From Mizuhopecten yessoensis (taxonomy: Eukaryota), in assembly GCF_002113885.1 (NCBI RefSeq), contig NW_018404662.1, positions 668,114 through 732,113 on the forward strand: a stretch of 64,000 nt of DNA, read 5' to 3'. A program made the translations under genes and the position numbers. Below, piece after piece: positions 28,561-63,803 of this stretch (its first letter is position 1; every line of letters begins with the position of its first letter). A model generated the notes under the pieces. The model saw only the letters and a program-made list of their open reading frames with translations. It made no database searches and was not told the DNA's origin.

Positions 28561-28585
28561 TTTGACAAAAATACCAAAGGGTTAA

Positions 28586-29621: not shown

Positions 29622-29644
29622 TTAATATAAACATGAGCAACTAG

Positions 29645-32793: not shown

Positions 32794-35700
32794 TCACTTC
32801 AAAGCTACTTTGTAAGATTTGCCACAGACATCCACTTGGAATGACTTGGAGCTTAGTTTATCTTTGGCCAGCGACACAGTTCCCATACACAACACTGTGT
32901 TCTTGGTAAAGTCGAAACCCGTGGAGGATACGGAACCTGCTACCCTGCCATCACAGTAGATCGGCTCCCCTCCCCAAACCCAAGAGTCCTCTTCAACACA
33001 GAAGTCTTCCAACTCCAGACATACTATAGTGGCATCTGTCTTGTTGCTTGCTGCTATTAGTGCTTCCTTTCCGATAAAGGATGTCTTCTGAAATTCAATT
33101 GAAACCCCAGGTAATTTGCCTCACCACATATTTAAATATAGAATTCAAAAAATAATCGTTCCTGCGAAGACGTTTAAGAAAATCTCGCAAGATACACTTT
33201 GATAATATAATATTGACAAATAGGAAGAAATACAAACAGTGACTGAAAGTGACTAAAGAGCTTAAAATGAGAAGATTTGATTAATTTAAACAAAAAATAA
33301 ATACTAGTACCGTATTCAACAATGCAGTAAGATAGAAACAAATATACAAGGCATAATTCATGTTATTGCAATGGAGAAAATCACATAATGAATACTCAAA
33401 CTGGAAAGTGGATAGAAATAGTGGAACTAAGCAGACGTACAAATTAAGTATCAAAAATGAAACTTCTACTGTATCTCAGAAGTAGATTATATTTTGTGGG
33501 TAAAACATGAACGAAAAATCATAACAAACCATGAAACAATCCCGAAGCATATTCACCTGAAAATCGACCATGTCCGCCATGCCGGTCACCATTGGTGTGG
33601 TGCCGGACGTAAAGTCTTTCAGCCACTGGGGGTAGACATTCTCGGTCTGCAATAACCTTAGTGTATGGTGGCCAGCGTTCCTGATGCCATATTTCTCTCC
33701 CACGTTCATCAACGTGTCATAAACGTCTACTGCTCCCTGTTATATTTAAAACAGGGCATTTGAATAATTATTTTATCCTATCAGTTTTAGAAGAAAAATA
33801 TTAACCTCCTGTATTTTATCACATAATTTTAACACTAGGAGACGATAAATAAACCATTATGGATCTGTTTTCCCCATTGCAATACTTTAGCGTTTTTCTT
33901 TTTATGACGCAACTCTAATACTATCCTTTCCATGTTGTTTATCTTTACTCTTGCTTTATATAACTCTTTTTATGACCCAACTCTAATACTATCCTTTCCA
34001 TGTTGTTTATCTTTACTCTTGCTTTATATAACTCTTTTTATGACCCAACTCTAATACCATCCTTTCCGTGTTGTTTATCTTACTTGCATCCTATGATCTA
34101 TTGTATATTAAAATCTGGGAATTTTGTTTGATTGAGTGATTGTACTGCGCACATTTCCACTAACTTTACGCGCACTAAATCAGGGTGAAGCTATACACAA
34201 GTGAATATATAATAACATTATATATATTTCAGCAACGTTAAAGGCGCGAAAATATTCACATACAACTCCATCCTACATGTATAACAACCAATCACATGAT
34301 GGCTTCTTAAAAAATCATTGAAATAGCGTTGTTGCTGATAGAGCGATACAGATTCCACAACCCAGATATGGCATTCAATGTTAATATTATCTAACGTAAT
34401 TGCCAAAAGAAACATTTTAGGCGTTCGCAGTTAACTCTTCATTTCTTCATAATTTACTCACCTGTGATGGGACAAGGAGAGTGGTTCCAACCATCCCGGC
34501 TAGATTCTGTTTTAGTACTGCAATATCCTTGGTCTGTCCGATGTTGACCATCTGAAATATTGAATGTTTTAAAAGAAATCAAAGATTGAAAAAGTACATG
34601 GTATACTTAATCATACTAGCAATTAAGGCAGTGCATGTGAGATTTGTTTTATATATTTTTATTATAAATTTAAATAGCATTTTCTGAGAAAAAAACCCCA
34701 CGTTCATTCATTAAAATGTATTTTGTATATTGTTTTCTAAATAACTTTCTTATACCGTTTAAAATCTAAGAAACTTTTGACAAGTAGGAAGCGTATTTCG
34801 GGACTATCTCACTTTCGATATTATTATTTCATTTCAACAGATTTTATTGACATGGTGTTATGGTCAAATGGATCGAATAACAGGCAAGCCTATATAAATT
34901 CTTTCCATAGGTGACAAGAGAATTGCAAGAATATTATAGAACTATAGCTAAACATATTTTATAGATATTTTGAAATGAAATTACATAAATGTAAACGATA
35001 ATGTAATTAAAGGGAGGTAACTCACTTTTGATTACTTACAATACAACATAGGACATACACACACCGGCAAAGACACACACACACAAACATGTATCATAAT
35101 TACACGTGTACATATGAGTTACTATTTAACATTCGATACAGTTAGGTAGATATAACAAAAGTCTATGTGCAAGTACTGCACAGGTCATCACCACCTAAAA
35201 TGTGCATTAATTTATTTATATGTAACTATTTAATCTACATAATTAACCCGATATGTACATTTATCAAAAGTATAAGTTAAACATTGTGTAGAGGAGCACA
35301 AAATAAATAAATGAAAATATGTATTTATTACATAATCAAATAAATTCACAACCATGTTCAACTGTTTTCATAGAAAATTACAGTTTTTGTCAATATAATG
35401 GCTTTCTAGATCTTGTAAAAGTTAAAACGTTTAGATTTCCCTATAAAATAATGTATATCACGAAGCATAAGTCTGTTTGTATTACCTTCACAATTAGGAC
35501 AGCCATGTAAAATAATGTCAATACCGATATGCTAATGCTCAAATGCATAATTAATGAGTGAGTTGAACAAATTAATCCGCAAATCATAGTAAATAGGACA
35601 TTCTAGAAAAAAATGAGAGACTGTTTCCAATTCATCTGAACAAGTACATACTGGACTTTCAGTTAGGTTGGCATGATGCAAATCAAACTTTAAGTCACTA

Positions 35701-38700
35701 CAATAATTTCTGAGTTAGGAAAGAATAATGTTTGCCCTTCTATCACCTTCAGTTTTGAAAATTTGAACAGATTTACCATCAGTTATAGTATTTTTATCTA
35801 ACAGCCATTTAAAAGATTAGTATCGGTGTTGTTAGCTGTGAGGCACATGGAAGGAAAAAAGCTGTCAAAGTAGTTATTAGTTCTGCATATTGGTGGGTTA
35901 AAAGTCTAGTTTGTCGGAGAGAATAATGATTTTCATTAGGATTGTTTGTAAAGGGGATCAACACATCTAATTATTGCGGTGAGAGTCCATGCATTAATTT
36001 ATACATCATGATATATTTGTGTTTCTCTCTTCTGGCAGCCAGAGTTTCCCAACCAAGTTCGGTATAACGTTTATTTTGTGATGTTCCTGAGCGAAGGCCT
36101 GTTATAATTCTAGCTGCTTCTAATTTTATAGATTCTAGAAGATCTGTTGATTATTGTGTGCAGTTATCCCAAACTATGTCAGCAAATTCCAAAATTGGTT
36201 TAATAAATGCAGTATGAATTATAATTAATGGTTTTCGATTTACTTTAGCTTTTATGTAACGAAGAATGTTGTAAGCTTTTTCAAATATGTTCTGAATATG
36301 TTGTTTCCATGATGCATCATCTTTAAGGGTAAGTCCTAAGTGTGTATGTGATGTAGTGTCTGTAATTTGGCTGTTTTAAAAAGTTAAAGTGGATTGATTT
36401 GTGTTATGTTTCCTTGAAAATATAACTGATTTAGTTTTATTAGGGTTAAATTTTATATCCCATGTGTTTGCCCATTCATTCATGGTAGTAAGGTCAGTTG
36501 TTAGTGCTTGTGCTGCTTGAGCTGGGTCTTCTTCTATAATTACATAAAGGGAGGTGTCGTCTGCAAAAAGCTTGATATTAGTAGAAACATTTTCGGTGAT
36601 ATCATAGATGAAAAGAAGAGAGAGAAGTGGGCCAAGGACAGATCCTTGAGGTACCCCTGCATTAATAACCTTGAATTGAAAAAGATAACACTCAGTACTA
36701 ACTCTTTGCATTCTGTCTGAAAGATAATTTTGGAACCAGATAAGTAAAATTCCAGCAAAACCATAGTATTTTAGTTTATGTAGAAGACCTTGGTGCCACA
36801 CACGGTCAAAAGCTTTATTGATGTCACAAAATATAAACCTAAACTCCTTTCCCTGGTCCATATTACTAACAATTTCATTATATATTAACAATAATTGATT
36901 TACTGTAGAATACCTACTGTAAATCCTGACTGATGCTTAGTTATAATAGAATTTTCAACTAGGTAATTATAAAGATATTTGAACATATTTTTTTCCATCA
37001 ATTTACTAAGACCAGAAATTATTGAGATAGGTCTATAGTTTGAAACATCATTGGTTGAACCATTTCCTTTATAAATAACATTAATGTTTGCTTGTTTCCA
37101 AATATTTGGTAAAGTCCCTGATTCTAAAGATTTACTAAATAATAGTGTGAGGGGTAATCTCAGAGAGGAACTTAGCTTTTTAACAATTTTACGGATAACA
37201 CCATCAGGACCTGGTGGTTTATTAACATTAAGACTATTAATTAGGTCAGAGACATCTTTTTGAATCACATGGATATTTGTTAGTGAAAAGGGGGTGAAAT
37301 GTTGTGCTGTTTGAGGGAGTTCAAGGTCAGGTGATGATGTAGAGATATTAGTAAAGTGACTGTTTAGGATTTCAGCTTTATCAATTGGATGGTGAATGAC
37401 CAGATTGTTAGATTCAAGAGGGGGGATAGAGGAGGATTTGTTAGAAAAGTTAGTGATAGATTTTGCTATCTTCCACCATTTATCTGGAGGGACCATACTA
37501 TCATTTAGTGAATTTTCAAGGTTTGTTTATGTAATTTGCCTTTGCTTCTCGAATCAGGTCAATAGTTTCATTTCTAAGAATACGAAATCGGTGCCATTAA
37601 TGAGGATTATTATTTATTTTAGCCTTTTTGCGTATTCTGCTTCTCATCTTAAGTCTAATGGTGTTGTTCATCCATGGTTTATCATTTGGGCGGACTGTTA
37701 TCACTTTGTGGGAATACATTTTTTGACATGTTCCGTTAAACAATTAATTATATAGAAGCATTAAATAGCTCAGTGTCCTGATTCAATGATAAATTGAACC
37801 AATCAACATTAAAAAGAGCTTTATTCATACTTTCAAAATCAGCTTCATCATATTTCAGAATGGCCTTTTTATAGCTCACTTGTTTAACTATGTTAACAGA
37901 AAGTTGGGCATGAACTGATAAGTGGTCACTACAGAATGGTGGTGATACATAGGCACTTTTAATTATGTTTCTGTTATTAGAAAATATAATATCAATGAAT
38001 GTGACACTGTCAGGTGTTATTCGTGTAGGTTCATTAATAAAACTAGACAGATTATGTTTGATAAGGAGTCTTGATAAGTGATAATTTAATGGTAAGTTTA
38101 ACATATCAACATCCATAGAAGTATCAGCAGCTCTAGTTAATGTATCATCAAGTTTGTTGCAGTAGTCAATGTTACTGTCTCGTCTATACAAACAACCAAG
38201 ATGAGGAGTATGAGTAAAGGAGTGTATTTGAATGTCAGTGTTGCTTATCAATGGATTGAAATGTGATTCAGTCAGGCATACTTTATCGTTACTTTCAAGT
38301 TCAGTTTCAATTCAGGAAGTTTTGTTTCTAAGGGATCGAACATTAAGGTGAACCATATTAAGATTGTGTAACGGTCCAGGATTACTTTCAACATTAAAAC
38401 AGAGGCATAGAATAATAAACTGTGTAACTAAAAAGAATGATAAGTTATACTATTAATAGTGTAATGTATATCTTTTTACTACATTGCACATTATTACTGT
38501 AGATTTATGCACTTTATTGTTACTGTTAAGTATGTACTTATATACTATATTGCGACTAACGTACATTATCATTTAACTTTGAATTTCCTGTATAATTTAT
38601 CGCAAACAAAATCATTAGAAGTATACTTAAAACGTATTTTTGATGTCTTGATACTGAGCAATTACTTATGAAAACGTTAATATTGTTGAAGATTGTCATT

Positions 38701-41700
38701 TTTGTAAAACGCGAATGGAAGACACAAATTACCTGTGAATTAGATTGGAGACTAATTGATGTCATATCATCAGTGACTTCTGATAACATTTTAAGGACGT
38801 TTTCGCCAATAAGATGTAACGCAGCATATGTGCCGCTGACGTCGGTCACCTGTACAGCTTTGGGAATATGCCGTCGTACCCATGTGAGACATCGAGCCTT
38901 TTGAGGTGAGGGACATAGCAAAATAAAACTGGAAAAAATCGTAAACTGTACTGGTTTATTTCTTTTTCATTAAACATCCGTTTTGAAGTTTAAATAAATA
39001 TGTGACAACAGATGCTATTGACGTCAAAATTACTGTTATAATTTATTTAAACTACATGATGATTATTTTTATTGCTTTATGAAAGTTTATCTTATTCTCA
39101 TTTTCAAAAATTCTTCTAGCTTCATTTTTTCAAAAGAAAACAAATTCATATTACGGTACAAATATTAATTAATAAACTTTTACCTCTTTTTATTAAATTA
39201 TACAATTCCATTGTTTCAATTTCTTAAAGGATAAAATTGTCAAATAGACAATGGTGTATATAACCGATAGTTATAGAAATAACTTCACCTGTTACTTTTT
39301 GTTGTGACAATATCACAAACGAGTTCAAAGCCACCGCGAGGATTGAGCATGCCTGTTCGAGTGACTTCCCCTTCCTTGCCAGATATGTAGCTATATACGA
39401 GAGTCTGTAGAGCATCTAATGCCTCGGAACCTGCAGACTTCAAGTAAGAATCACAATTAACAACTGGTTCAGTAGTAGAATTTTAAATATAATACTATGT
39501 ACATACTATTATGACTAAACAATCAAATATCTCAATTCGCACTTTACAGTGTCCATGTGTATGTCAAATGAATCTCTCTACATTGATAGCTGTCAAACTG
39601 AACAAACAGGTGTACATTTTTAAACAAAATTTAAACAGTATGATACTACAGCATTTTGTTATTTTTTAATCATTAATTCATTTTTCAGATATTGCTTTTA
39701 CGACAAATGTTCTTATATTATTCCACAATAAAGAAAACTCATTTATTTCCTTTTTTCACACGCAAGTGGTAATGAGGACTGAATGTATGGATGGTAAATA
39801 TTAACGACACAGAATAATGTCTGCAAGGCAATCCTAATCATGACATCGATTTTACTTATTAAAATTAAAGGGAAATTATCACATGCATACTGTGTTAACA
39901 TGAATACCTTGATTTCAATTTGTGTAAAGCACGAAACGTCGAACATCCCCACGTGGTTCTTGCATGCCAAGTACTCAGCCCTTACCGGCTCTAGCCAAGA
40001 GGGTTTCCCGAACGTGCCCTTGGCTGTATTGTATGGAGCTAGAATAAATTATGATACAAATCAGCGCAACATGTATAACTGGGTTTCAATATGACAAACA
40101 CACTTTATCTCAAGCTGAGCTGAAATTCGTATAAAATTATAAAATGGCAAAATATAAATAAAGCTCAATCAGCTTGAAAAAAAATGTGTTGTTGGCCTTT
40201 GTATAAACTTTACATTAAATTAAGTCCAATTGCATTATTTAATGGAAATTGAGTTTATATAATGCGGAAACTGTTCCTTATAAAAATTTCAGTTCGTATT
40301 TGCATTATAGTATACTGCAAAACTGGATGGTTTTAACGTTTTGTTTATCAATTTATTCACGTCATGAACATTTTCACAGTGACAACGCTGCTACAATAAA
40401 TATTGAATAGTCTGTACGTCTGTATTTTGGCAAAGCCGTTTTTTATTTCTCATATTCTGTTAAGAAAGCTTTAAAGTTTGAAGCATTCTTAAATTTTAAC
40501 ACAATGAACGGTTACCTTGGTTGTCCGAAAACCACAAAGGCTTTTCATAGGCACTCTCTTCTCCAAAGCATGCCCCATTTGCCATGAGTTTAGAATGAAG
40601 AGGAGAAACCAGAAGTTCCCTGGCGGTCTTGTACTGGTCGTCTGGATATTTCAGTTTGTACCGACCTACATAGCAAATAACATACCGAAATAGTGAACAT
40701 GAAGAATTGTCAATGGGCAGAAAGATGACTTTTAACTGTTTCTCTCAGTAGCATTTATTATGGAAGACGAAAATCTAGAAAATTGGTTGATAATGGCGTT
40801 ATCTTTGAGGCACACTTTGATCAGTGTTCATACAATCAGACATTGCGGACAATTAATTTAAGATTTTTCAGATTCTTTATTCCTTGTGTTTTAAAACTCA
40901 TCGGAGAGAAGACATAACGTACACAGTATTTTTTAAAACAATAAAATGACATACGGTATGATTGTACAGCATCTTGCTTCTCTCTTTGCTATGTCAGTAT
41001 TCTTATTTCATAACTATGTTCCATAAAATGATTCATTACTTCTTTGTCATTGATTATAAAAGGCCGAAGAAAGTACATTATTGTAACAAACAATATCGAC
41101 AGCATACCTATGACTTCTGCACATCTGTTGGCAAGATAGTGTATATCGCCCTGTTGTTGCGCGTGTCTCTTTACGTCAACGGAGGACAGGTTGACGGAGG
41201 TCGGCTCCCCAGAGATGAGCTCAGCCATATGTCGGCCAAGTCCTCCCGACCCCGCTATACCATTTGATCCCATACCCGTAGCCACAAAATAGTTCTTCAC
41301 CTATAAGATCATGTAGTACATATAAGAGATATCTGGTTAATCCCACACCCTATTGTACAAGAAATGAGAATAAAGCATTGAATATATTTTGCTAGATTAC
41401 TCAGCTCTATCAGACTTATCTATATCTGGTAACTTATTTCTGATGTTAATACCAAATAATATGCCATGTCGTCAACACAAGGGCAATATTCACTTAGTCG
41501 ATACGGTTGGACAAAAGGAACTACATAAATTATAACTGGATAGCGAAACAAGGGGAGAGCCATCACGAACTCCTCGCTTAAAAAGCTCAAGGGAAATCTA
41601 GACTCTGTGGAAGGCTGGGCGTTTCCTGTACCACATGTGGCGCCAAAGTGATGTGCCGCCGTCAAGTCCAGGACAATATATAGGTCACTTGTCACTTAGA

Positions 41701-44700
41701 CACTGTGAGCACGTCTTTATTCGTGGAATGAAATATAATATAGAACTTGGAACTTAGTGTACATTTGCAGCTCCCAGGATGGAATCCCTGGTTTAGTAGG
41801 TTGTTGACTATTTTCTATTTCGAAATTTATTTTCTTTGTGAGTGATAAGAAGGATAACTGTACACTGTTTATTTGTTCTGTTTCATTATAAACCCAGTAG
41901 TGTACTTGATTCAGAGGAGCATTTATTTCATAAATTGCCATTTCCACTAGGGAGAGATGTGTTACTATTTAATTAGATAGTTAAAATGTTCCCGAATATT
42001 TCCGCATTTACCTCTTTATTTGCTATGATTATCTGGCATCAAAATTTATTGTTATAATTTATGGTAACGAAACATTACATTGTATTGAATAATATTTCTA
42101 CATAACATTGATAGGCATATTAGAGATAAAGCACCTCGGCAGATTCTCCCACATTCCACATATTGTCTGGAGTAAAGGACTCCGGCCCGTTCACGAACTG
42201 TCTGATCTGTGTCGTCTCCAGTATCGGGAATCTGTTCAGTATCCCATCCATCAGAACCTCTGGAAGTACGGAACCGGAACAGTGTAACATCCAACGTCAA
42301 ACCATCATAAATAACAGAAAATGGAAATACAATTCGACAATAAAAGACAACGTGATTTTTGTTATGATACACTGATTGATAAACATACGGAAGTGGTCCC
42401 AATCTTCGGACAGTAGTTGGAATTCAAACTTGTCTGGCACCGCCTCCCCGAACACGGGCTTTCCTTTAGGTTCGAACCCTCCGGTCATTATTCCGCCGCT
42501 CCACTCACGTGCGTATATCAAGCCATCGTAGTCTCTCACAACTGTCATGATGTCACAATCAATATAAAAGGAACTATTAGCAGGGGTATGTTGTGTACAT
42601 TTTGTAATTTATCTATACGTAACTATTTTTTTTAAACTGAAATTACAAACTGGAGTTATCGATGAAAATCCTTGCTCCTTTCCATTGACGAATTGGATTC
42701 TTTGATGTAACCTGACGACCAATAGAACGATATTATAGCTATCAAATACTGATTTTACTATAGTGACAACAGACAGCATACTCGTTTGAATTAGAGACTT
42801 CAAGATGTTGATAAATTCGTCATTTTTTGGTTCAAAGTCGCGATAAATCACGTATAATAACTTACCTGGCATCATCCGGTCGAGGCCTTCGATGGGCTGA
42901 CTCACAATGTAGAAATGTTCAAGAGGATGCTGGGGTATGTTTACTGGTGGGTCAGATAGTCGTCCGAGATTTCTACCCCACTGTAACAGTAATCAAATTA
43001 TATATTAGAAGGGGACTATGATTTGTTTTGGTTTGTAATTCTCAAAACTGTCTGATGAAATCGAATGTGATTGGTTTAGTTTAATTGTTTATAAATTGGT
43101 TGAAAGTGTAACTACGTCCAACAGTACATCACAGAATTGTACATCCTCGATATCCAGGGGTTACGCTCACTTTCGCTCTTTGCACCCCTGGAATATGTCA
43201 TAGCAAATTTGAAGGCTCAGTGTGTGCAACCTTGTTGATGAGACAAGGAGACTAGTTCCATCCTTTGATTTAAATCAAAAGAATCTTGCGGTCACGTAAC
43301 GGTAAAAATGACAGGCTTTGAAGTCGGGCGTCTCTCCTTTGTAATCTTCAAAGGCAAGGTATCAGCCTAGCGATTGTCCGATTTTTTTACCTGAGACCAA
43401 TCAAACAGCTATCTTTGCGCATTCAATTTTGCCATGACATATTCCAGGGGTGCAGGTGAGAGTAACCCATGGATATCGAGGATGGAAATTGTATGTCCAG
43501 CTTACTTGTCCAGAGCAGTTTACGAAGTATTCACAGCTGATGTGACCGTGTGAAGTCTGGACTCCGGATACCTGGCCATCAGATGTGTTAATTCTGTTCA
43601 CTTTGACGCCCTCGATGATCTGTACACCTGAAATAAACATTGTACTGCTATTGATGGTACGTTTTACTGTGTTATATCGGTCATGAGGAAGCCTTAATTT
43701 AAAGCTGAGTTTATGTTATAGGTGTGTCGTACGAACTACTGTTTCTACTGTATTAACGTGAATTCTGGATTCGATCTGTAATGTAAATACTGTACAAAAA
43801 GCCAGGGCACGTATACCAGGATATATGAATGCCATTTGATTGGCCTACCAGATATATTAAAACATCTGCCTGACGACACTGCTAATTCTATACTTTAGAG
43901 AGAAAATCAACGTTTCTTGATATTCTTCTCCTCGGAAAGTGTTCTATGAGAGAAAAGGATAATTCTTGATGTTTTAATAGACTTGTTAATAGAGTCCATG
44001 AAAGGGCATTATGCCACTACCTTTTGCCTTTGCTGCCTTGGCGTACGTGATAGCTAGGTCTGGCGCGGTCAGAGCTCCATCTCCGGGGATCCACAATCCG
44101 CCCTACAGTTACACAATACAACAAATACATTTTGTAAAATAGGTAACTGATGTCACTGTTATCATACACATTACATAACATTATCTTGTTTGCATTACAT
44201 GATGTCTGTATAAAGTGCAATCTTCAAAGCCTGTATTTATTGTCTGGAAAGGAACTTGGCTCACCCTATATTAAATAAACAGATCTTTATGGAAATTTAT
44301 TTGTACAGAGTTTGAGTCATCATGGAATTGCACACTTGAATACATAATTATACAATACAATTTAAGATATCCCGATATCTATCCGCCCATCTGTCCCTTT
44401 GCGAATTTTGTTGAAAGCCCCTCGAAGGTTTCATGTTCACAACATGATTCGTAGTTACCATTACTTTAGTTTATTTAAAAAAAGTCACGCAATACAAAAT
44501 AATTTATAAAGTATCATAATGTGTGCTAGAGACATATACTATAGTACCAGGCAGGGTAGCGTTATAGCGTATGTGAAAAAATCCATATCGTAAACAATGG
44601 GATTATGGAACTATACCGAAAATGTACAATATCGCGAATGATATTGTCTCGAACTGGTGTACCAGATAAATATGGCTACATTCTTTGCATGACGTAAACG

Positions 44701-49235: not shown

Positions 49236-49829
49236 GGTCAGTATTATGACGGGTCGAGTGAATGTTTTTTTCTGCTCCCTGGTTTCGTTTTGGACCTTTA
49301 AAGTAGAACTAAGCGAGAAACAAGTTCAATGAAATACTGTTTACATTATACACGGCCTCGAATAAACATTACATTTGAACAGTTGGTGTTACGACAGATA
49401 AGACAAACACGACACACGGCCTAAACGTTTAAGTCATACCTTGAGGGACACCAGTGACAGCTAAATTTTCTCTGAGCAATTTTAGATATCACCTATGTAG
49501 TATACCAGTATTGGACGTGTCTTTTTCTATGTACAGTCTTTATAAATACGCAGTGAACCTGCCACTGTCCGCTGTGGTAAAGCTATTACAGGTAGCTTTA
49601 TGTGTTGGAATTGTTATTCAGTACACAAGTACATGAGCGAAAAAAAATGATATACAATGGAAAACAAACCGTGTTGTGTTCATGGTTGTTGCTGATCCTA
49701 ACATTTTGTTGATAGCGTACTGTATACCACGCAGAGGCTTAATAACCATATACAATAGGATATCAGGTGATGTAAAAGTTTTGAACTTCATGCATAATTT
49801 CGACATGTGTCTTACAATTAATTGTAAAC

Positions 49830-50520: not shown

Positions 50521-51038
50521 GTTCGAATAACGGATTTTTTGACACTTCGTTTATCCATTGTTGTTTTATAACAGAAGTATTATTATTGAATCAATGTACA
50601 ATCAGCACTGTATTAGGCCTGAGTCTGGATTTATAAGGATATATAAATACAAGATATTTTGTTGAGGTAGTACAGTATTGTTTAAACATTTACGCAAGTG
50701 TTCATACTGTGTAATTCATATACAAGTAGCCCCCATCGTTACTAGTATCTGTAATTCATGTTATTAAGGAAAATCATCGGGATATCCATACTTATTCTAA
50801 ACAAATTAACACGATTGTCATCAGCTAGTTTTTCCTGTTCATTTTCACGACATGCATCATCTCTCAGTGATGGGGAAGTGATCAAGCACGTCCTATCCAG
50901 TGCTCGGAAAAAGTACACAACAATATGGGAAGGAATATCTTCAGTAACGATATCGGAAAAAGTACACAACAATATGGGAAGGAATATCTTCACTAATTTT
51001 CTTGAAGTACAATATCAAACTTTGAATTATTCTACAAA

Positions 51039-51425
51039 TGTCACCCTGGTAAAATACTAGCTGTTTCCTACCGACTCGGCTAGGGAGAATTTCTCTTAAG
51101 CTCATTCGGTAGAGCGTAGGACTAGTAATTATAAAGGCCAATGGTCCCGGTTCGACTCCTAGCGGAGGCATTGAAAAAATAATTACCTCCGTTATATTGG
51201 CGCCCACGTAGGGACCCGGGATATAAAAAAAAATAATGTCCCCTAGAAAACCAGGTACGAGTTCTTTCCTGGTATGTTATCCTGGTAAAATACTAGCTAT
51301 TTCTTACCGACGCGGCTGTAAGGAATTTCTCTTTAGTTTATTTGGTAGAGTGTAAGGTTAGTAAGCCAGCGGTCCCGGGTTCGACTCCTAGCTGAGACAT
51401 TGAAAAAATAAATACCTCTGTTACA
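51039..51425 (+). mobile_element. Miniature LTR retrotransposon (TRIM) with tRNA-derived LTRs (Helenus-like)
   Basis: LTR1 51039-51196 and LTR2 51275-51425 (TG..TA/CA), each with A- and B-box tRNA-like sequence. PBS TGGCGCCCACGTAGGGAC at 51198-51215 (tRNA-Lys-like). Flanks caaa/cata. Confidence 0.85.
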
Positions 51426-53379
51426 CATATTTATGGAAAAGTTATCATAAAAACTACGACAATAAAACAAAGTTCAACGTTCTATTCTAGTTCAATCCTT
51501 ATAACCAGACGGGAAAGTTCAGAGTTGACCAGTCATTTTCAACTCTCCCGGATATCATAATACATCATTTTTCATATCGATGACGATCCGTGGTAGATTG
51601 TAGATGCTTTTTCTTTTCATTATTAAGTATAAGTGTGGCTAATGCAAATTTTAGGAAATGTTTCTTAATGTCTATAAACATACTCATATACAGTCATATT
51701 GATATATAGAAATAATTATACCAAGCATACGAAAAGAGGTTATTGAAATATTTGAAATTAGACTGGTTCTTTCATGAGAAATGATATAAAAATACGTTAG
51801 TGGATTGTTTAGCAGTTAAGTCTGTATCACTTAGAGGGACCATCCTTTAGTAAACCATCCTGGTTTGGCAACGTTGAAGCTGAATATAGAGAATGTAGAT
51901 ATGGCGTCTGTTTTATACACACAACGTGTTGCACCCTGTGTGGGAGAAAGGTATTGACGTATTATGAATATTTAACATTATGTAACAAAAATCATTGTTT
52001 TTTTAAAGCAATGATTCCGTTAAGGATCTAAAAACAGGGAGCTATGGTTCACTAGTAAGACACTCTAACAAGTGAGAAATTTTCTCTAGCAAATTGGAAG
52101 GAAGCGGCTTGTATTTTACGTAGGTGACATACTCTCCCTGCGGGAAAAGTTAACACTCGTCTCGAGTGTTTCCAGGAGTAACTGCGATGATAGTTAGAAC
52201 AAGGCTTTGATTTTTTGTCAATAATCCAAGGACTCAACGTTGGGTACCAAAATGTTATTGAGATCATAGAACTCGTTGCCTCCGCTTGATATCCGTAGCC
52301 GTGTCGGTACAAAGTGGCTATTATTTGTTCATGGTGACATTTGTGTGACTGTTTCGTCGTGATACAACTGTTTTGCATCTCGAAAGCTAACTAATAGTCA
52401 AAACACAAGCATATGCTTTAACGATATAAACATATATAGTAATGTTTTGTTGTTGTCAGTCTAATGGTGATCTCTAGAATACCTCCAATATCTGGGTTGT
52501 AACAACGTATCAGACAAGGCTGGCCACTGTCACACAGACAGCATGGAGGATACGTTGTCGACTATAGCTGCGTATCTCTAGCTAAGAACAGGTATAGTGG
52601 ACACAATCATTGTGGTATCCAGTCCAAGACTGGTTAATGTTGTAATATAACACATATTATTGCATGATAAAAAGGGCCAACACTATCGTAGAATATGTCG
52701 TGATAATTATCATTTTAGTGCATCACCGAATAATCTCTAAGGTGGCCAATATGCAATTTAGCCTCAACTTTTCTTGAGTTCTTCGGGGAACACATGTTTC
52801 GCTACGAATGAATAATTGAAAAATTAGGGACAACACATACATGTTGACTACTATAGTCTACTTATTTTGATATTCCAGATTCCTTATAACGGCGACCACG
52901 AACCACCAGCGGCGGATGCTTGCCCTAATGCAGCGACATCTCCTGGCAGATGGGACGGTTGATATGGTCGAAAATGATCCATCCTTTTCGTCACTGACTA
53001 TCATCGGGTCAAATAGCGAAGAGATGACGGAGGACATGTGTGATGTGTCTGTTCTGGCTAAGGACTTCAGGTCAATGACGTGCAAAGTATGTAACTTTTA
53101 TTGTGTGCTTATTTTCACGAATTGCATAAGAACCCGCGTGTCATATAATGTATGCCTACGTTTCCGAGGTTACCTATTACATTATCGCTGGAATTTATTT
53201 TGGTTCTGGTTACACAAAACACTCATTTTGAAATATAAAAAAATCTGTAACGTTATAAAGGGAATAGGTACTATTCCCCTTTTGCTGTATTTCTATAATA
53301 AAACATTCTATTGACTTCTTGTACCACTGAGGAGTCTAAAATGGACAACATGGACATAAGGTGCAGTAAATGTTGGTTT

Positions 53380-53740
53380 ATTTGGCTTTCCTCGAAGCCC
53401 AATGGACGGAGTCCAATAAGGGAAATATAGGTAAATCTTTAACATCCTAGTCCTTCAGTACAGGTAAAGTGATTTGGTATTTTGGCCTCCTTTGGCAAGG
53501 GTGGCCAATTGTTCTATAATCGAAGAGTGTGGCATCGCTTTGGGTAGAGGCGCGGTGGTCGAACAGGAGAAACGAGGCAATTCCTTTAAAATCCTACTTT
53601 TTGTGTTCAGGTAAAGTGATTTGAACTAAATACTTTAGAGTATCCTTTAGCACTCAACTTGGTTTAAAGAAAGGATATGACCCCCAGGGAGCATAATGGC
53701 TGGGTCCAATAGGGGGGATTGGAATTTAATCGGATCCCCG
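53380..53740. mobile_element. Decayed fragment of the HINE family seen at 26324-27458
   Basis: ccaataagggaaatataggtaaatctttaacatcc and related units match the ~150-bp internal repeat. Confidence 0.5.
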
Positions 53741-54125
53741 TGCTGAAGCCACATACACGTTTGATAGGTATGGAGAAACAGACATACATAGTATATGCTA
53801 CCAGGATTGGCTGTGAGGTCTAGCCTCACCACGATGGATTCAGTCCATGACTCAGATATATCTTTGAAACGGTTGAGATCCCCACCCTATGCTACTTGGA
53901 TTGCCCCGAGGATTGTTCTCATCCGTGGGGACCTGTGCCTTGAGTTATAACCTGAAACAGGTGGGACCCCCACCCCATAACCATATGTACAATTGCTGGC
54001 CATGAAGAAACCATTACACAGACATGCTATCAGGATTAGCTCATCAACCAGTGGCCTGGCCCTGCACCTTGAGACGTATTTGTATTATTGCTCTTAATGA
54101 GCATATCTTGCCATTACTTCATTAA

Positions 54126-55550
54126 AGGGGAATCACGGTGAAGTAACTTTGTTTTTTGTCTTTTTTTCAAATACTACATAAACATATCAAGTGAGACTCC
54201 TTATGGAAAATAACGATCGGATTTGGCTTAAATAGATTCATAAAAATGATTAAATCTAAGAAAATCATTGGTATTTCTACCTGTCTGACCAAAGTTTTGT
54301 TCAGGGATTTCCCTCTACTAGCGCATACGTATAGCACACCATTTCTTTGTAAAAAAATGACTGGCCGTGTGAAATAAGCGAAAGAAAAGTGTTGTACCGT
54401 GTCAGCTACGAAACAAAGTTGCCAAATGGTCAAAAGATAGCGCAAGGAGTACGTTACGGAATCATTATTGCTGGTGGGCAGTATTCAAAGGAGAAAATAA
54501 CTGCCCTAGCAGTTAGTACGGTGCATGTATTCTTCCGGATAGCCGGTTAAGCTGAAATGGAATCGATAGAAATGCTAGCGCTGTTTATGTTATGAATAAA
54601 TATCTAAAACTATTAAGCTCGCTAGTATCTTAGTCTGAGTTTGAACACAGATGAACTTAGTTTAATATGTTAATGGGCATTTATCAAAGAGAGTTTACTT
54701 TGTGTTTCTATGATTATACAGTGGTTTATGCGAAAGGAAGAGATAAGTGACTGGTTAGTTTGATTTTGCCATGAGGCCCTCCAAGGGATAATTGTTGTGA
54801 AGGCCCACGGCGTATTGTCGGGGTCATCAAGATACGTGCGCTATTAAATTTACATAATTTATAATATTACCGGGTTCAGTAAAATAGTATGATTTGATTA
54901 TATAGCTGAATTAAACGATTATTTTTGGTTTTACGTACAAGATTTAAATTAGTACTAATATGAATACCCGGCCTCCTCTGCCCCGGCAATATATAAAAAA
55001 AAAAAAACACCAGAAAGGTTTGTCCCATGGTTGAGGGAAGGTGTTTAGCCCCGTACCATCTGTACAGGTCACAATTGTAAATGTATGACGGGAGAAGGCT
55101 GTGATAAATTGTAAAACTTGTGCTCCATCCCTTGTTCAATTTTATTGGCAACAAATATGTTTAAAGCTAAATAAATTTAAATTCTGAATATTGGCAAGCG
55201 TGCAATTAACTTCTGATGATGAATAATTACTGTTCAATAAGTTTGAATACGGACTCAGAAATCATATTACTTGGTTTCATAGCGCGGTAAGAAGTTGCAG
55301 TTGCCTGACGGCCCCTCTCTGGGGGCCCCTCTGGAAACCGTTTCATCTCGCTCAGACCACTTGTGTTTACTGCCGAGTCAGGTGACTTTATTGGCGCTAT
55401 TTTTAGCAGGGCTTTCCCGAACAATTCAAGTGGTCAAACTGGACATTTGGAACGGACAATGAATATGGGAATAGCGAGGTAACATAAGTGGAAGTGCAAA
55501 CAATATATACATTCACTAAAAAAACATATGGCTCTTCACGTGATGTCCCT
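54126..55550. mobile_element. Possible TTAA-TSD DNA transposon (Kolobok-like) containing a CR1-type 3' tail at ~55080-55165
   Basis: ttaa|AGGGGAATCACG ... CGTGATGTCCCT|ttaa (10/12 inverted match). Confidence 0.45.
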
Positions 55551-56561
55551 TTAACTCTCTGGGCCCATTGTTTAATGTAAAAAGGCAATCGATCATCCGC
55601 TTGAATCTCCGAGAAAATATTTAATTAGCAAATTAACGTGTAGGCCATCAAAATAAAAAGTGTGAAACGATTGGAAAAAATAAGAAAACATGTTCATTTC
55701 ATTTCATATCAGTCATATATGTATAATGATGTCCTAGCAAATAGCATATTACAATAGTTACTTCGAAACTATATCATAAAGTGTAGAATATGAAAGTTTG
55801 CTTTGCACTTATTCATTTGCACTTTTTCAGGTTGTAGATGATGGATTTTCTATTGAAATCCGCGCAATGAGAATGCCAGTGTCCGGAATCGATTCTCTTA
55901 CGCTATATATTCCGACCGACAAGGTATAGTAGCAACTTCTGGATTGAATTTATTTTACATATTGACATTATAAGTTTCAAATCTATTTCAATTCATGGTA
56001 CATAACATTGTATAAAAATTCTTCTGGTTACGATTGAATTGAAATTATTTAAAAAGTTTACAAGAAAAACAAGAATTGCACTTGAAGTAAATATCGAATG
56101 TGTACGTATCTAAGGAGCTGATTTATAATACTAATATTTTTTGTATCGATTGTTGTTAAATATTTTAACATTTGTTATTGGTAGGACAATCGAGAGCATG
56201 CTTAAATGGATTCTCTTTCAGGTTGTGTTCATACATGTAGTTGAAAATTGGCAGCTTGGAATCCAAAATGAATTCTAAGTCTTTGCTTCAATAATCTGCA
56301 TGTTCTAGTTGTGTTAGCAGACAAAACATCCAAATCACTTCATCCTCGTCTGCAAACACTATTGTGGCTTTACAAACCTTCCATAATAAGGTCGGTGTTA
56401 GGTTTCAGTGTTAAATAAGGTATGACCAGAATCCCGCTAATGTTTCGTATGTGCACAAGTACCTGCATGTAGTTGCTTTATTCATTGTCATGGAGCAGAC
56501 GAATCAAGGACAGTCGATGCAATATGGCGTTTCATCTCAAGTAGCTTCCTGAATAATATTA

Positions 56562-57149: not shown

Positions 57150-57310
57150 CATTCTTGACCAGTCGTGTAAGTTTATTTTATAATGTTTGTATCAGTACTG
57201 GATTTATGCAGAGTCAGTACAGTATCAGGCCTGTGCATAGATACACAGTATTATATGTACAAACTGTTTGATATACCCGTGGTCACTTTCGTGACGAATA
57301 GTTACAAGAC

Positions 57311-58409
57311 ATGTTACTGAGGAAAGGCATCGGGATATCCACACTCGTTCTCAACAACTTCAGACGGTTGTCATCAGCTAGTTTTTCTTGTTCAGCTTCA
57401 CGACATGCATCATCTCTCAGTGATAGGGAAGTGACTAGGCACGTCCCGTCCAGTACTCGGGTGGTCATCTGTGGAGGGGGCGTTCTCGGAACGTCAGTAG
57501 CCTATCATCTAGCGGAAAGGGGCTGGCACGATGTAGTCCTGCTCGAACAGGGCAGGTATGTATACAGATGTCTTACATGAACAACGTCAAGGCACTCAAA
57601 CATATAAAACTACTTTGTAAATATGGATCTATATTGGTTTGTTTTAATCCTAAGTCAGATTTCAGTTGTAGCGGAAATAATCAATAGAAATGTATACACA
57701 TGATCAGTTCATACAATCTGTTTAACATCTCGCCCAAGCAGTTGTACTACAGCCTATTACTAAACACGCTTGTTGTTGGATAACAACATATGGTAATAAT
57801 ATAATATCAACTTCAATTATATCACAAAAAGTACGGAAAGACTATGACATGGTGGTATTCACCACCTTTGGGTCATGATAAATATCGACCCAAAGGGTAG
57901 GATTATTAAAGTTCTTCTGGCCGAGGTTGCCGAGGGTCAAACATTTCAGAACAATACCCCAAGATTGAGCGTTTTTCTGTCTTATTTCCAAAATGGAAAA
58001 TAGTTATTTTTCTACAACCTCAAATACAAGTGGTGATTGGATGACACACACGCGTTGATCGTATGGTTTTCTGTGCTTTTCTGTTGTTGATATGAATCTG
58101 TGCATTGCTTATGTGACGTCATACAATTGTAATGTTTTGGGAATCAGCTTGTCTTTATTTTAGGGGAGGTAATAACATCTCTTATTGACTAGAAATGCTG
58201 ATTTCTCTGTCTCATGGGACAATTTACTTATCTTGCATTCAAACACTAGACCCGGCACTATACACAGGAAACAGCTCGGTTTAACGGCTTTTCAATCCAC
58301 AGCAACAATATTGAAATATCTGTTATTACATGGTATTGAACTGATATTGTGAGATTTGCGCAGCAAAAACAACCCAAAACAAATACCTAAAACTAAATAT
58401 ACCTAAAAC

Positions 58410-58445
<36 letters not shown>

Positions 58446-61400
58446 TTCAATTAATCAAACAATAAGTATGTATTTTGTGATCAGTCTGACGTGCGGTACG
58501 ACATGGCATTCTGCCGGCCTGATAGGACAGCTGGGGAAAGACGACATAGAGGGGTGTAAACTGATTGGATACGGTCTACAGCTGTATAAGGACTTGGAGA
58601 GGAGCCACGGCATAGGTGAGAATGGGAACCACATGTGGTACAATTCTTTACAACAACTTTTATGAGATTTCAATGTTACTTCGTATTAAATATAGGTGTT
58701 TTTCTTTTGTTAGTCTGAAAGATGTTGGTCATGTAAATTGTTCCTACATATTAGTGTATATTATTTCAAGGTACAATAAAATTTGATAAACGGCTCATTA
58801 TAAAAACAGATTCTGGAATAACGATTTTAGGATCTATAACACGTGTACTCCGAAAATATGTCTATTCTAAAAAGACTCATTAGTCCCGGGTATATACGGT
58901 TAAAAATGTTACGATTTACACTAGATACTAATAACATCTATAATACTTGTATATAACAGGTTGGAAACAGTGTGGAAGTTTACTTCTAGCTCAGACCAAG
59001 GACAGACTCGTCACCGTTGAGAGGAAACATTCACTAGCCAAGTACGACATTCCCTTAGGATATCCATTGTGTAGACCTGATATATTTGATATAATAATGA
59101 CAAGATCTGGAATATATTAATACACCTTTAAGTACGATCCTGTTTTCTACATGTATTAAACATGTTTTGAATTCAAATATATTTGGAAATATGATTTTTA
59201 AACGACAATCCTGTATATTTTTACATGTAATATATGCTATACATTCAAATATAAAAACGACTTTCCTGTTTAGGAATATACTTCAGATAAAAGCTTCATA
59301 CCTCAGGTTCAAGTTTCATATTAAATCACTATTAGTGTTTTGAAAAAACGTCATTTTTGTGAGGTAAAATATGGGACTCGTAAATTAACTGATGGATTAT
59401 ATGAAAGGTAATTCAGGATGGATACATCGGAAACATTCTATGCTTAAACAATAAGAGGTCATGCTTATATTTATCACAGGTATAATGTGTGAAGTATTTC
59501 ACAATACATGTATATCCCTAATGGGTATGGCTTTAACGCAATAATATGGATTTTTGTGAGGTAGCATATATATATGATATATGGGATTTTACCGTCTATT
59601 TTACTTTTTGACCCATATATATATATATATATATTAAACGACAATCCTGTATATTTTTACATGTGATATATGCTATATTACTTCATTGACCCATATATAT
59701 ATATATATCTATAAAGATATTTATGAAACCTGAAGAGCCCTGTGAAGGGTGAAAGCAGCTAGTTTTTTAGTCGGTCGTTCATTTTATTTTTTCTATATAT
59801 ATATAACTCTGATACAAGTCACAGTAATAGTGTACAAAGAATCATTTATCTTTAACCCTATAAAACATCACAGGCTGAATGCTCCAGCAAGCATATACTC
59901 ATAAAACTAATTCAGTGAGTCTTACACTCATCTCTCCAACATAAATCACAGGTAAAATATGTAATGGAGAATTTAGCCACATTTCTATCTGAGGAAAATG
60001 CATATCTGTCTCCCTGACCTTTAAATAAATTCGTTTATGTATGATGAAAATAACCAGACATTATCAATATCTATAAACATAATTTGATTACCTAAGATCA
60101 CTATTAGCTTTTTTGCCCATGTTAACATTTCCCCGTATATTATCATTATAACCGAATCCCAAATGCACTTCACGAATATATAAAATCGTTAAACGTCAAT
60201 ATATGTATTAAATCAACTATTAATAGTGTGCGCTAAAATATTTGTCTAGCATGCCCACACGTGTGCCATAAATTCTACTGTATGTAACCGTTTTAACTTT
60301 GTACAATCCAAAGGGTTATTGGTGTAGAATCTCACCTGGTTACTCCATCGGAAATCAGCGACTTGTGTCCATGGATAAAAACATCAGATCTTCAGGTAAA
60401 TACTGCAAACCAGACAACGAAAATTGGCGATGTGTTCATTTCAGAGTTAAATCGTAAAGAGAGTCGATAATAAATTAAATAATTCGTAAACACTTGCTAT
60501 GGCATTGTTCCGTTTCGTGAATTCAAATGCCCAGGAATGTGTCGTTCAAAAAGCGAATATTTTCATTTACATACCATAAAATTTATTGATTTGACAGGGA
60601 GGTCTTTGGATTCCGGGAGACGGCGTGGTGGCTCCAAACGACCTGGTATACGCATACAACAATGTGGCTAAATCCAAAGGTATGCTGACACATTATTTAC
60701 TGCATATGCATTTATTAAAGTGGTACTGTTATTTACATCGGCCATAACAGTACTCCAAAGTGTGAGAAAGCTAGTACCTCAACCTAGTAGGTCGAACATA
60801 AGCCGTGACTCTGAAGTATGAGAAAGTGTTTAAGTTGACCATAGTGTGGAGTTCTGTAACTACTACACATGTGTTCGTCTATCTATCATGGACTCAAAAG
60901 TATCAGAACGCTAGCACTTCGTCCAAGCGTGTACGTTAACCAAATCATGTTTTTCCAGTACGAGAACGATAGTACGTCGACCGTATCACGGGACTCTGAA
61001 GTATGACTACTCTGATATAAATAGGTTTGTCAAATTATGTAAAGAGCAGTTTGGAGAAGGGGATAATGAACTATTTTTAATATCATATTGCGGAGTGTTA
61101 ATCAACCTAAGATGGTAAGAAAATGAATGAAAACAAACACACAAGAACAAAGACTGAGCCCAAAATCCGATGCAAAACATGCAGAAAATGGAGAGATTTA
61201 AAAACAAATGAAACTATTTGAATGGTAGGGATAAAAAAACAAGAGAATACCGAAAATCAACAAAATTGTACTTCGAACTCAAATCGATAAACACAGGGTG
61301 AAATATGAACAAGAAAAGAGTTTATAAAACAATGCAAAAAAACAAAGAGAGTATGACCAGGTGTTCCGCAAAGGAAAGCGTCAAATCCTATTAATGTCAC

Positions 61401-63803
61401 GTCCCCAAAGCGAGAACCATGTCAGTGACGACAAAAATTCTAGGCACATTAATGAACATAATCAAAACATCGACCTTCAGATAACATAAGGAAGAAGGAT
61501 ATTTCCAAGAGAGATCAAAATGGCCACCATAAAACTTGACAATTGTCTTCATTAGGATTTAAAGCACATTAAGAACTGTCCACGACACCCACAGTCTTAT
61601 CCATTAAATGATGCTTATCAAGAACGATAAAAACAATAAATGAATATTTCATCATGATAGAATCTGAATTCGGTACTTGGAAATCAAGTTATGAACATTC
61701 TCCTCAGTGTAGATTGAGCTTTCATTGTAAAAAAAAACCTTGTGAATATGTATTTTAAGGGGATAGTGACTTATATTAATATTGCTTGTACACAGGGATC
61801 CAGGTGATGGAGGGAGTAAAGGTGGAGGATGTTCTCTCTACGGACGGCAAGGTGACAGGGGTACAGACATCGCACGGTCATATTCAGTGTGAATACTTTG
61901 TTAGCTGCTCTGGGCAGGTAAGTAAATTAGGTGTTCAGCGCAAAAACACGTTTATTAGGATAGGTTTACATGTACCCGGTAGAGTGTGTATTAAGTTAAC
62001 GTTGGAGAATGAATCTTCATAAAAGAAATGATTCCAATCAATTTCTTGATAACTGCAATTGATACTGCTAAGATATAGTAAAACTCATCAAATTGTCTCT
62101 CTAGCACTAAGTATAAAATGGTTTTTTTCAATTTCCAAAAGTATCAAATTGACAATAACACCTTGTTTTGGGTAGATATTCAAACTTGATATGTTTTTAT
62201 CGTCTGATTCGTTAAATGAAACATCTTATCTATGAGATAGCACATTCGTATTCTTATTAAGAATAAATCATCTATAAGATAGTATGCATTATCTATATGA
62301 CACAGTGGGCGCGCCACCTCGGGGCGAGGTCGACTCCTTCGGTCCAGGTGCCTCTCCACTCCAATGAGCATTTCTATATCGTGTCATCAGCTATCCCGAA
62401 CATGGATCCAATGATGCCAGGTACAAAACATAAGGAAAACAAGATACCGTCCGCCTACACAGAAACATATATTTCTTTTGGGATTATGTTAGCGTAAGAT
62501 TGATAAAATCACAATTGCAACAACTTATACTCTTGTAAATATAGTGAGTTGCAATATCGACTACCCCCAAGAGGTACAGGCAGTCCACCTTCTGGCGTGC
62601 TTTGTGCTTTGAAGTCAACCGAGTCAATCATGGCATTACTCGGGATATTGGAGAATATAAAAAAACATCCTAAAAATCTATTCCATAATGATGGGGATTA
62701 GTTAATTTAAAATAAAGTACGCAGAATGATAATAAACTTAATGTATAGTACGGTGAAAGATAATAAGCTTAAATTATAATATTGTGAAAGTTAATCAACT
62801 TAATCTAATGTCTACATAAACGTTATGGTAAGGGTTACCTACAGTAACAATGGGAAGGAATATCTACATTAACAAAATGGAAAGTTTTCTATTCTCACAA
62901 TAACATTATGGATAAGAGTATTTATTGTAACGAAATTGGAAGGAATATTTACAGTAGTAAATGGGGAAAATGACTGTTGTAGTTGTAACACGCACACACA
63001 ACGATCAGTAAACGTACATCGCATGAACACGTAATCGTTAATGATGTCTTTCTATAGATCTGTATAATACTTGACTTCTGTGGTTACACAGTGATAAGGG
63101 ACTATGATGGGTCTATCTACGCTCGAGAGTGGAGTGGGGGTCTACTTGCTGGAGGATTCGAACTTGAAGGAAAACCAACCTTCTCCTTTGGTGTGCCAGA
63201 TAAATTTGAATTCCAGCTCCTTGCCTCAGATTGGGACCACTTTCGTAAGTATAATGAAAAGAAGTGTTTCAAAAACGCTTATTAATCTCATAATATTAGC
63301 ATTCTAAAACGATAGAGGTTGCACACAACATTGCATGGCGAAGATTTGTTAATACCATGTTATTATTAGTATCAACTCCAAGTATGAATTAAAATGTATA
63401 CGTTTTTCCTTCTGGGGCGGACTTTTTAGACATAGATTTAACGTTATTCTGGTCAAAAGGTCACGATGCAATCTAGCTAAACCGATGTTATTTCCTTCTG
63501 TTATTCTTTTTTAGTGTTTCTAAATAATGGTAATTCGGCTAACAACCAGCCTGTCATTGTTAACAGTTGTAGTGTTCTTCCTTCTACAACGCATGGTTTT
63601 GGTTAAGAGGTCCTGACGGACCAAATTTTAAATATTTTTTATTTCATTTTGTGAGAGTCCTTATCTCCCCTTTTTCAGAGGTCATGATGGAACCCATTCT
63701 CAACAGATTCCCAGCTATGGAAACGGCTGAAGTGCGGACACTAGTCAACGGTCCGGAGAGTTTTACACCGGACGGGAACTGGGTTCTAGGAGAATCAGCA
63801 GAG
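57311..63803 (+). CDS. PDPR: PDPR-like mitochondrial flavoprotein (copy B), exons 1-9, continues beyond the window
   Basis: Exons 57311-57555, 58485-58615, 58960-59041, 60314-60395, 60598-60679, 61796-61917, 62306-62420, 63092-63244 and 63679-63803. In frame, with exons 3-9 the same sizes (82/82/82/122/115/153/125) as copy A. Motifs VVICGGGVLGTSVAYHLA, GTTWHSAG, EHFY and NGPESFTPD. Confidence 0.92.
59725..59766 (+). ncRNA. Candidate minimal type I hammerhead ribozyme
   Basis: GAAAC-CUGAAGA-GCCC(UGUGAA)GGGU-GAAA-G(CAG)C-UA-GUUUU: intact core, 5-bp stem I, 4-bp stem II and minimal stem III. Confidence 0.6.
61130..61660 (-). mobile_element. Degenerate Penelope-like 3' fragment
   Basis: Minus-strand LMKTIVKFYGGHFDL remnant followed by the gacgctttcctttgcggaacacctggtc motif. 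Confidence 0.45.

What the first reader, a model, noticed from the sequence alone, without database searches (positions are those of the whole stretch)
32794..63803. Expanded PDPR-like cluster whose members look like covalent-FAD enzymes rather than the mammalian pseudo-enzyme
Seen: copies A and B encode LTCGTTWH(A/S)xG directly after the dinucleotide-binding loop, plus EHFY and IYAREW. Established: this His is the 8-alpha-histidyl FAD attachment site of dimethylglycine and sarcosine dehydrogenases (GSTWH/GTTWH), whereas mammalian PDPR has GSTRF and binds FAD non-covalently. The rest of the sequence (LLEQG, EDWDHF, WGGEPIY) is PDPR-like. Inference: these mitochondrial paralogs may be active amine/N-methyl oxidoreductases, for example for osmolyte turnover, with local duplication allowing new functions.
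Basis: partly seen in the sequence, partly recalled or inferred. Interest (0 to 1): 0.7.

Follow-up and report, generated by a model that had tools for sequence, protein, structure and literature searches.

The report
Scallop duplicates of a flavin pseudo-enzyme
A scallop carries three intact tandem copies of PDPR, a gene that in vertebrates lacks the histidine that anchors the flavin cofactor; the scallop copies keep that histidine, as most invertebrate versions do, and two of them conserve the flavin half while the folate-binding half drifts, so they are likely working amine-oxidising enzymes of untested substrate.

Summary
The motifs are real. The window holds two intact 17-exon genes (A, B) and a broken partial copy of B; a third intact, slowly evolving copy (D) lies 9 kb beyond the window. 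All three group with PDPR, not with DMGDH or SARDH-like proteins. The flavinylation His is not special to this cluster: it is ancestral, present in 31 of 31 mollusc and 20 of 22 other invertebrate PDPRs covering the site, and in 0 of 36 vertebrate ones. EHFY and IYAREW do not discriminate, because vertebrates keep those residues. First, A and B keep the FAD domain (96 of 103 conserved columns each) while the C-terminal folate domain has relaxed (64 and 70 of 95; D 92); a limpet duplicate shows the same pattern. Second, no DMGDH or SARDH gene was found in this assembly, which fits a published table for four other molluscs. Best reading: A and B are likely covalently flavinylated, folate-independent amine oxidoreductases; activity and substrate are untested.

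The parts
32794..49235 (-). Copy A: intact PDPR-family gene, 17 exons, 834 aa (P0001); FAD domain conserved, folate domain relaxed
   Evidence: Exact exon model; spliced reads in 1 of 4 runs laid; trees
49003..49235 (-). A exon 1: basic N-terminal leader (7 R/K, 1 D/E in 36 aa; predicted mitochondrial presequence) and GxGxxG loop
   Evidence: residues 1-36 unstructured in the model; targeting itself inferred
46608..46622 (-). A GTTWH; His86 is the predicted 8-alpha-histidyl FAD site
   Evidence: aligned to the DMGDH/DMGO His
42909..42920 (-). A EHFY: His of the His-Tyr dyad (DMGO His225 equivalent)
   Evidence: also kept in vertebrates
42501..42518 (-). A IYAREW: Tyr of the dyad (DMGO Tyr259 equivalent)
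   Evidence: also kept in vertebrates
39289..39437 (-). A exon 13: Val replaces the Asp equivalent to DMGO Asp552 of the folate site
   Evidence: scallop orthologues have Ile or Val
35532..38311 (-). Broken non-LTR retrotransposon remnant in A intron 14
   Evidence: ORF list; RVT_1 E 2e-22 for 36379-36936
50757..55919 (+). Fragment C: decayed partial duplicate of B (part of exon 1, exons 12-15); no exons 2-11, so no His and no FAD domain; exon-13 copy has a stop and a frame change
   Evidence: blastn 68-85% to B; translations
57311..63803 (+). Copy B exons 1-9 of 17 (852 aa, P0342; ends at 68162, beyond the window); FAD domain conserved, folate domain relaxed
   Evidence: Exact exon model; spliced reads on later exons in 1 of 4 runs
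58495..58509 (+). B GTTWH; His90 is the predicted 8-alpha-histidyl FAD site
62366..62377 (+). B EHFY dyad His
63115..63132 (+). B IYAREW dyad Tyr

Best explanation
A and B are scallop-lineage tandem duplicates of the PDPR gene that keep the ancestral flavin-attachment histidine and a conserved FAD domain while their C-terminal folate domain has relaxed, and they likely act as covalently flavinylated, folate-independent mitochondrial amine oxidoreductases. Inferred mechanism: import and presequence cleavage; FAD attached to His86 (A) or His90 (B); the His-Tyr dyad handles an amine substrate that is oxidised to an imine; electrons likely pass to a carrier such as ETF, or to oxygen; the imine would hydrolyse to an aldehyde rather than hand a one-carbon unit to tetrahydrofolate. 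Copy D, outside the window, is the conserved orthologue and likely keeps the ancestral job tied to the C-terminal domain (probably regulation of pyruvate dehydrogenase phosphatase), possibly alongside catalysis. Shown: gene structure, clade, His distribution, domain asymmetry, splicing. Inferred: covalent FAD, catalysis, substrate class, electron acceptor, role of D.
For: Trees place A, B, D inside mollusc PDPR (FastTree 1.0, 133 rows; SH-aLRT 99, 44 rows); A+B form one clade (0.997; 100) with orthologues in Pecten and Ylistrum. His census on the 120 rows: molluscs 31 of 36 rows His, 5 not covering the site; other named invertebrates 20 of 24, 2 not covering, 2 insects Phe; vertebrates 0 of 36; unnamed 21 of 24. 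Conserved columns from 36 animal PDPRs: FAD domain kept 96, 96, 102 of 103 in A, B, D; folate domain 64, 70, 92 of 95 (Fisher p 4e-6, 2e-4, 0.35). A orthologues are 89-91% identical in the FAD domain and 72-75% in the folate domain; D 95-96% and 94%. Lottia 123647 repeats this independently (99 of 103, 65 of 95). A lost the Asp552 equivalent. The model of A matches DMGDH over its length (pLDDT 90.4, TM 0.88). The nearest bacterial and sponge relatives keep His, dyad and folate residues, so the ancestor looks like an enzyme. A and B are spliced in the same 1 of 4 RNA runs.
Against: No activity, covalent flavin or substrate was shown. Vertebrate PDPR keeps the dyad and an equally conserved FAD domain (73% fish to bird) without the His, so FAD-domain conservation does not prove catalysis. 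The His was lost at least 7 times on the tree (some rows are long, poorly aligned branches), so it is dispensable in many animals. A His can be kept simply to hold the cofactor. The PDPR surface that binds the phosphatase was not established here; if it is on the FAD domain, A and B could still be regulators. B keeps the Asp552 equivalent. RNA depth was low (about 1-3 fold per bin) and tissues are unknown.
Confidence: 0.5

Rival explanations
1. All three copies are non-catalytic regulators of pyruvate dehydrogenase phosphatase, as vertebrate PDPR is described; the His only anchors FAD, and A and B are tissue-restricted regulatory variants.
For: Clear PDPR orthology; PDPr is described as an FAD-associated subunit that blocks PDP1c (PMC6606986, passages); the DMGO Glu658 column is not Glu in any of 36 mollusc or 36 vertebrate rows; His lost repeatedly.
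Against: His kept in 31 of 31 mollusc rows covering the site; duplicates in scallop and limpet independently shed the PDPR-specific C-terminal residues but keep the FAD site.
Confidence: 0.27
2. His-bearing PDPRs (most likely D, or A/B releasing formaldehyde) replace the missing DMGDH and SARDH and demethylate dimethylglycine or sarcosine in molluscs.
For: No DMGDH or SARDH found in this assembly; SDH 0 in 4 of 4 molluscs, and the PF16350 count for Lottia is 3, equal to its three PDPRs found here (PMC7240134 Table S2); dimethylglycine is measured in mussel mantle (PMC10570847, passages).
Against: The His is equally kept in Lingula, Capitella, Branchiostoma and Patiria, which have DMGDH, so retention is not caused by the loss. 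Folate-site residues differ from DMGDH. Monomeric sarcosine-oxidase-like genes exist in the genome and could take sarcosine. The GSMT column is also 0 in those four molluscs, which fits loss of the pathway rather than replacement.
Confidence: 0.14
3. A and B are flavin-based redox or ligand sensors or binders with no net turnover.
For: FAD pocket conserved while the folate domain drifts; restricted expression.
Against: No positive evidence; enzyme-like ancestry.
Confidence: 0.08
4. The genes are mis-annotated DMGDH or SARDH.
For: Same domain order and fold; GTTWH motif.
Against: 24-34% identity per domain to Lingula DMGDH and 32-33% to a SARDH-named row, against 35-50% to bird PDPR; both trees separate them with full support. 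No animal SARDH was in the trees.
Confidence: 0.01

Closest known systems
Vertebrate PDPR (pyruvate dehydrogenase phosphatase regulatory subunit)
   Same: Same clade; DAO + FAO_M + GCV_T + GCV_T_C domains; dyad His and Tyr; D shares the PDPR-type C-terminal residues.
   Different: Vertebrates lack the flavinylation His (0 of 36). A and B have lost 31 and 25 of 95 conserved C-terminal columns.
Dimethylglycine dehydrogenase (rat 4PAB/4P9S, human 5L46)
   Same: Fold (TM 0.88), flavinylation His, His-Tyr dyad (PMC5082570).
   Different: About 27% identity; separate clade; folate-site residues changed in A, B and partly D; substrate unknown.
Arthrobacter dimethylglycine oxidase (1PJ5; D552A mutant 3GSI)
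   Same: His48, His225, Tyr259 equivalents present in A, B, D; Asp552 equivalent in B and D.
   Different: A has Val at the Asp552 column; Tyr651 and Glu658 columns are changed in all three.
Sarcosine dehydrogenase
   Same: GTTWH motif and domain order.
   Different: SARDH-like rows (one named by its source) form a separate clade; no animal SARDH sequence was available here.
Uncharacterised bacterial GcvT-family FAD oxidoreductases (e.g. Inquilinus, Dongia; some auto-named 4-methylaminobutanoate oxidase)
   Same: Nearest non-animal relatives; 50% identical to D in the FAD domain; same His and dyad.
   Different: Keep the folate Glu; their names are automatic and no substrate was verified.

Membership tests
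PDPR | Groups with vertebrate PDPR to the exclusion of DMGDH and SARDH | tested here: met
PDPR | DAO + FAO_M + GCV_T + GCV_T_C architecture with basic N-terminal leader | tested here: met
   (B's GCV_T_C scores 24.4 bits, just under the 25.9 cut-off)
PDPR | PDPR-type conserved C-terminal residues | tested here: inconclusive
   D 92 of 95; A 64, B 70
PDPR | Binds and regulates the PDP catalytic subunit | not tested
PDPR (vertebrate type) | Flavinylation His absent | tested here: not met
   His present in A, B, D
DMGDH | Orthology to animal DMGDH | tested here: not met
DMGDH/SARDH/DMGO enzymes | His for 8-alpha-N3 covalent FAD | tested here: met
   Residue present by alignment; the bond itself is not shown
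DMGDH/SARDH/DMGO enzymes | His-Tyr catalytic dyad | tested here: met
   also met by vertebrate PDPR, so not discriminating
DMGDH/SARDH/DMGO enzymes | Folate-site acids (DMGO Asp552 and Glu658 columns) | tested here: not met
   A lacks both; B and D lack the Glu. The role of Glu658 is recalled; Asp552 comes from the 3GSI title and alignment
DMGDH/SARDH/DMGO enzymes | Oxidative demethylation of an N-methyl amino acid with electron transfer to ETF or oxygen | not testable with these tools
   Needs an assay
SARDH | Orthology to animal SARDH | tested here: inconclusive
   Separate from the SARDH-like rows (6, 3); no animal SARDH in the set

The most novel reading that the evidence does not exclude
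Molluscs have lost both dimethylglycine and sarcosine dehydrogenase, leaving PDPR as their only mitochondrial member of the family; invertebrate PDPR is a bifunctional protein (live covalent-FAD amine dehydrogenase plus phosphatase regulator), and duplicates in scallops and limpets have independently split off the enzyme half as folate-free amine oxidases. Vertebrate PDPR would then be a recent pseudo-enzyme whose lost reaction can be identified from scallop A and B.
Probability: 0.25. Interest if true: 0.75.

Novelty: new variant of a known kind. Interest (0 to 1): 0.52.

Why it matters
Why a phosphatase regulator is built on an FAD-bound dehydrogenase scaffold is unexplained (my own knowledge; the library searches found nothing on it). 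His-bearing invertebrate PDPRs, and especially duplicates that keep only the flavin half under constraint, make the ancestral reaction directly testable. If molluscs lack DMGDH and SARDH, the fate of dimethylglycine in these animals is open, and domain-based counts of 'DMGDH' in molluscs would really be counts of PDPR.

Tried and rejected
His as a cluster-specific gain: rejected. EHFY/IYAREW as signs of activity: rejected. Fragment C as a functional copy: rejected; reads near it look like repeat-derived reads. A short exon found nothing in PDB sequences. Pattern hits outside the cluster (17, 1, 2) were translated and none was a family exon. PF16350 found only 1 of the 3 known copies, so that search is weak evidence. 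PF01266 scored only 15 of 79 candidates. A profile search of the genome for SARDH was not available; single proteins and patterns were used. N-methyl-aminoethylphosphonate as substrate was considered after PMC10590968 (passages), but its enzymes are only 20-27% identical to SarDH and no link to PDPR was shown. Atlas search of a SARDH-like protein gave no mollusc information. No RNA holder was on record among indexed runs. No complex with PDP was predicted, for lack of a PDP sequence. Ten paper searches listed no study of His retention in invertebrate PDPR or of DMGDH/SARDH loss in molluscs; subscription journals are not covered. Leys 2003, Luka 2014, Tralau 2009 and Lawson 1997 were not held. 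PMC12292574 had only a reference-list mention. Earlier-findings look-ups gave nothing relevant.
Full report
Observation. The motifs are at the stated places. A search with one exon returned P0001, 100% identical over the exon and named PDPR-like of Mizuhopecten yessoensis by its source. Mapping stored proteins on the window plus 140 kb of flank showed copy A (49235 to 32794, minus), copy B (57311 to 68162, plus) and copy D (102397 to 72928 in window coordinates, minus). Each is 17 exons with GT-AG introns and the same phases, and translates exactly to P0001, P0342 and P0346. Between A and B lies a decayed partial copy of B with no FAD domain. A genome-wide pattern for the G[ST]TWH[AST][AV]G motif matched 3 places, the three genes.

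Expression. Four raw RNA runs were laid, about a fifth to a quarter of each. A shows spliced reads in X19 only (five junctions listed, 8-10 read starts each). B shows two spliced junctions in X19 only. The last exon of D and the region downstream of it have low depth in all four runs, without a listed junction. Tissues are unknown and depth is low.

Identity. FastTree on 133 selected rows (814 columns) and IQ-TREE quick on 44 rows both nest A, B and D in mollusc PDPR, inside an animal clade that includes vertebrate PDPR. DMGDH and SARDH-like rows fall far outside. A and B are sisters with long stems and have orthologues in Pecten and Ylistrum, so the duplications predate those genera. No animal SARDH was available: the SARDH-like rows are mostly unnamed (one named sarcosine dehydrogenase by JGI) and their assignment is partly recalled. 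The model of A (pLDDT 90.4) matches rat and human DMGDH with TM 0.88.

The histidine. It aligns with the GSTWH His of DMGDH and His48 of DMGO. Human DMGDH binds FAD covalently at His91 and uses a His-Tyr dyad (PMC5082570, passages and section 14; PMC3684772, passages). Among the 120 rows listed: named molluscs 31 His and 5 not covering the site, of 36; other named invertebrates 20 His, 2 Phe (insects), 2 not covering, of 24; vertebrates 0 of 36; unnamed 21 of 24. On the tree 61 of 82 animal rows have His, 20 do not, 1 is a gap, and the non-His rows form 7 separate groups. The His is therefore ancestral and repeatedly lost. The dyad His and Tyr are kept in 36 and 35 of 36 vertebrate rows, so EHFY and IYAREW carry no weight.

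Domain asymmetry. Of columns conserved in at least 90% of 36 non-scallop animal PDPRs, A, B and D keep 96, 96 and 102 of 103 in the FAD domain but 64, 70 and 92 of 95 in the folate domain (p 4e-6, 2e-4, 0.35). Between scallop genera A is 89-91% identical in the FAD domain and 72-75% in the folate domain, B 88-91% and 77-78%, D 95-96% and 94%. A has Val at the DMGO Asp552 column. One of three Lottia paralogues shows the same pattern independently (99 of 103, 65 of 95), and a Branchiostoma paralogue weakly (99, 82; p 0.02). The DMGO Glu658 column (folate contact, recalled) is Glu in DMGDH, SARDH-like, most bacterial and the sponge row, but in no mollusc or vertebrate row. So even D is unlikely to use folate as DMGDH does.

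Missing relatives. Searches of the own genome with tick and Lingula DMGDH and two SARDH-like proteins returned only exons of this cluster, at 30-59% identity, which is the internal control for sensitivity. The GCV_T family search returned 13 matches: 9 in this cluster and 4 from an aminomethyltransferase-like gene. Patterns gave no family exon elsewhere. The assembly has 82,659 pieces and only the best candidates are scored, so this is strong but not final for DMGDH and weaker for SARDH. None of the named rows among the 120 best DMGDH hits was a mollusc, while Lingula, Capitella and two nemerteans were there; unnamed rows could hide one. In PMC7240134 Table S2 (whole table read) SDH is 0 in 4 of 4 molluscs. 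Its DMGDH column is a PF16350 count, a domain that PDPR also carries: Octopus 1, Crassostrea 3, Lottia 3, Haliotis 0. The Lottia figure equals the three Lottia PDPRs. The table has false zeros (for example SDH 0 in rabbit; Haliotis 0 although PDPR exists there), so it is support, not proof. Monomeric sarcosine-oxidase-like genes are present on C5239. Dimethylglycine is measured in mussel tissue (PMC10570847, passages).

Mechanism. Shown: structure, clade, residue states, asymmetry, splicing. Inferred: duplicates that keep a His-linked flavin pocket under strong constraint while dropping the PDPR-specific C-terminal residues most simply have a function located in the flavin domain, namely oxidation of an amine to an imine with release of an aldehyde and no folate step (0.5). 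The main rival is a non-catalytic regulator with an anchoring His (0.27): vertebrate PDPR is described as an FAD-associated inhibitor of PDP1c (PMC6606986, passages) and conserves its FAD domain without the His. Replacement of DMGDH/SARDH is third (0.14), since the His is also kept in animals that have DMGDH.

Verdict. What is particular here is the split constraint in A and B and the apparent absence of the two canonical enzymes. Ten library searches listed no paper on either point; key subscription-era papers were not held. New variant of a known kind; interest 0.52.

Noticed in passing
G000 whole assembly: No DMGDH or SARDH gene found; together with a published table this hints at loss of both in molluscs and mis-counting of PDPR as DMGDH.
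   Followed up: partly
G000:C1335 about 751590-752250 (L003/L004), intron after D exon 12: About eight 88-bp tandem copies of the exon's 3' end. The aminomethyltransferase-like gene on C5326 also has many tandem copies of an exon end (L046/L048).
   Followed up: no
window 17169-21214 (+): FERM plus C-terminal RING exons, a MYLIP/IDOL-like gene by recalled architecture, next to the cluster.
   Followed up: partly
window 43141-43455, A intron 6: A short repeat that attracts many reads continuing into unrelated sequence in all four RNA runs; probably a dispersed transcribed element.
   Followed up: no
window 27950-30850: Low-complexity tandem repeat arrays giving long spurious open frames.
   Followed up: no
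window 2031-3763 and 14779-15945 (-): Further retrotransposon-like open frames; 2031-3083 had no Pfam match.
   Followed up: no
L079/L080 (G000:C5239) and L081 (G000:C1908): Two neighbouring monomeric sarcosine-oxidase-like (PIPOX-type) genes, and a further DAO-family gene on C1908.
   Followed up: partly
Tree: Arthropod PDPRs fall in two groups: an insect-type group without the His (includes a centipede row) and a chelicerate/centipede group that partly keeps it; possible ancient paralogy.
   Followed up: no
Lottia rows P0020, P0084, P0024: Three PDPR paralogues with the same longest-contig length, one with a relaxed folate domain: an independent parallel to the scallop cluster.
   Followed up: partly
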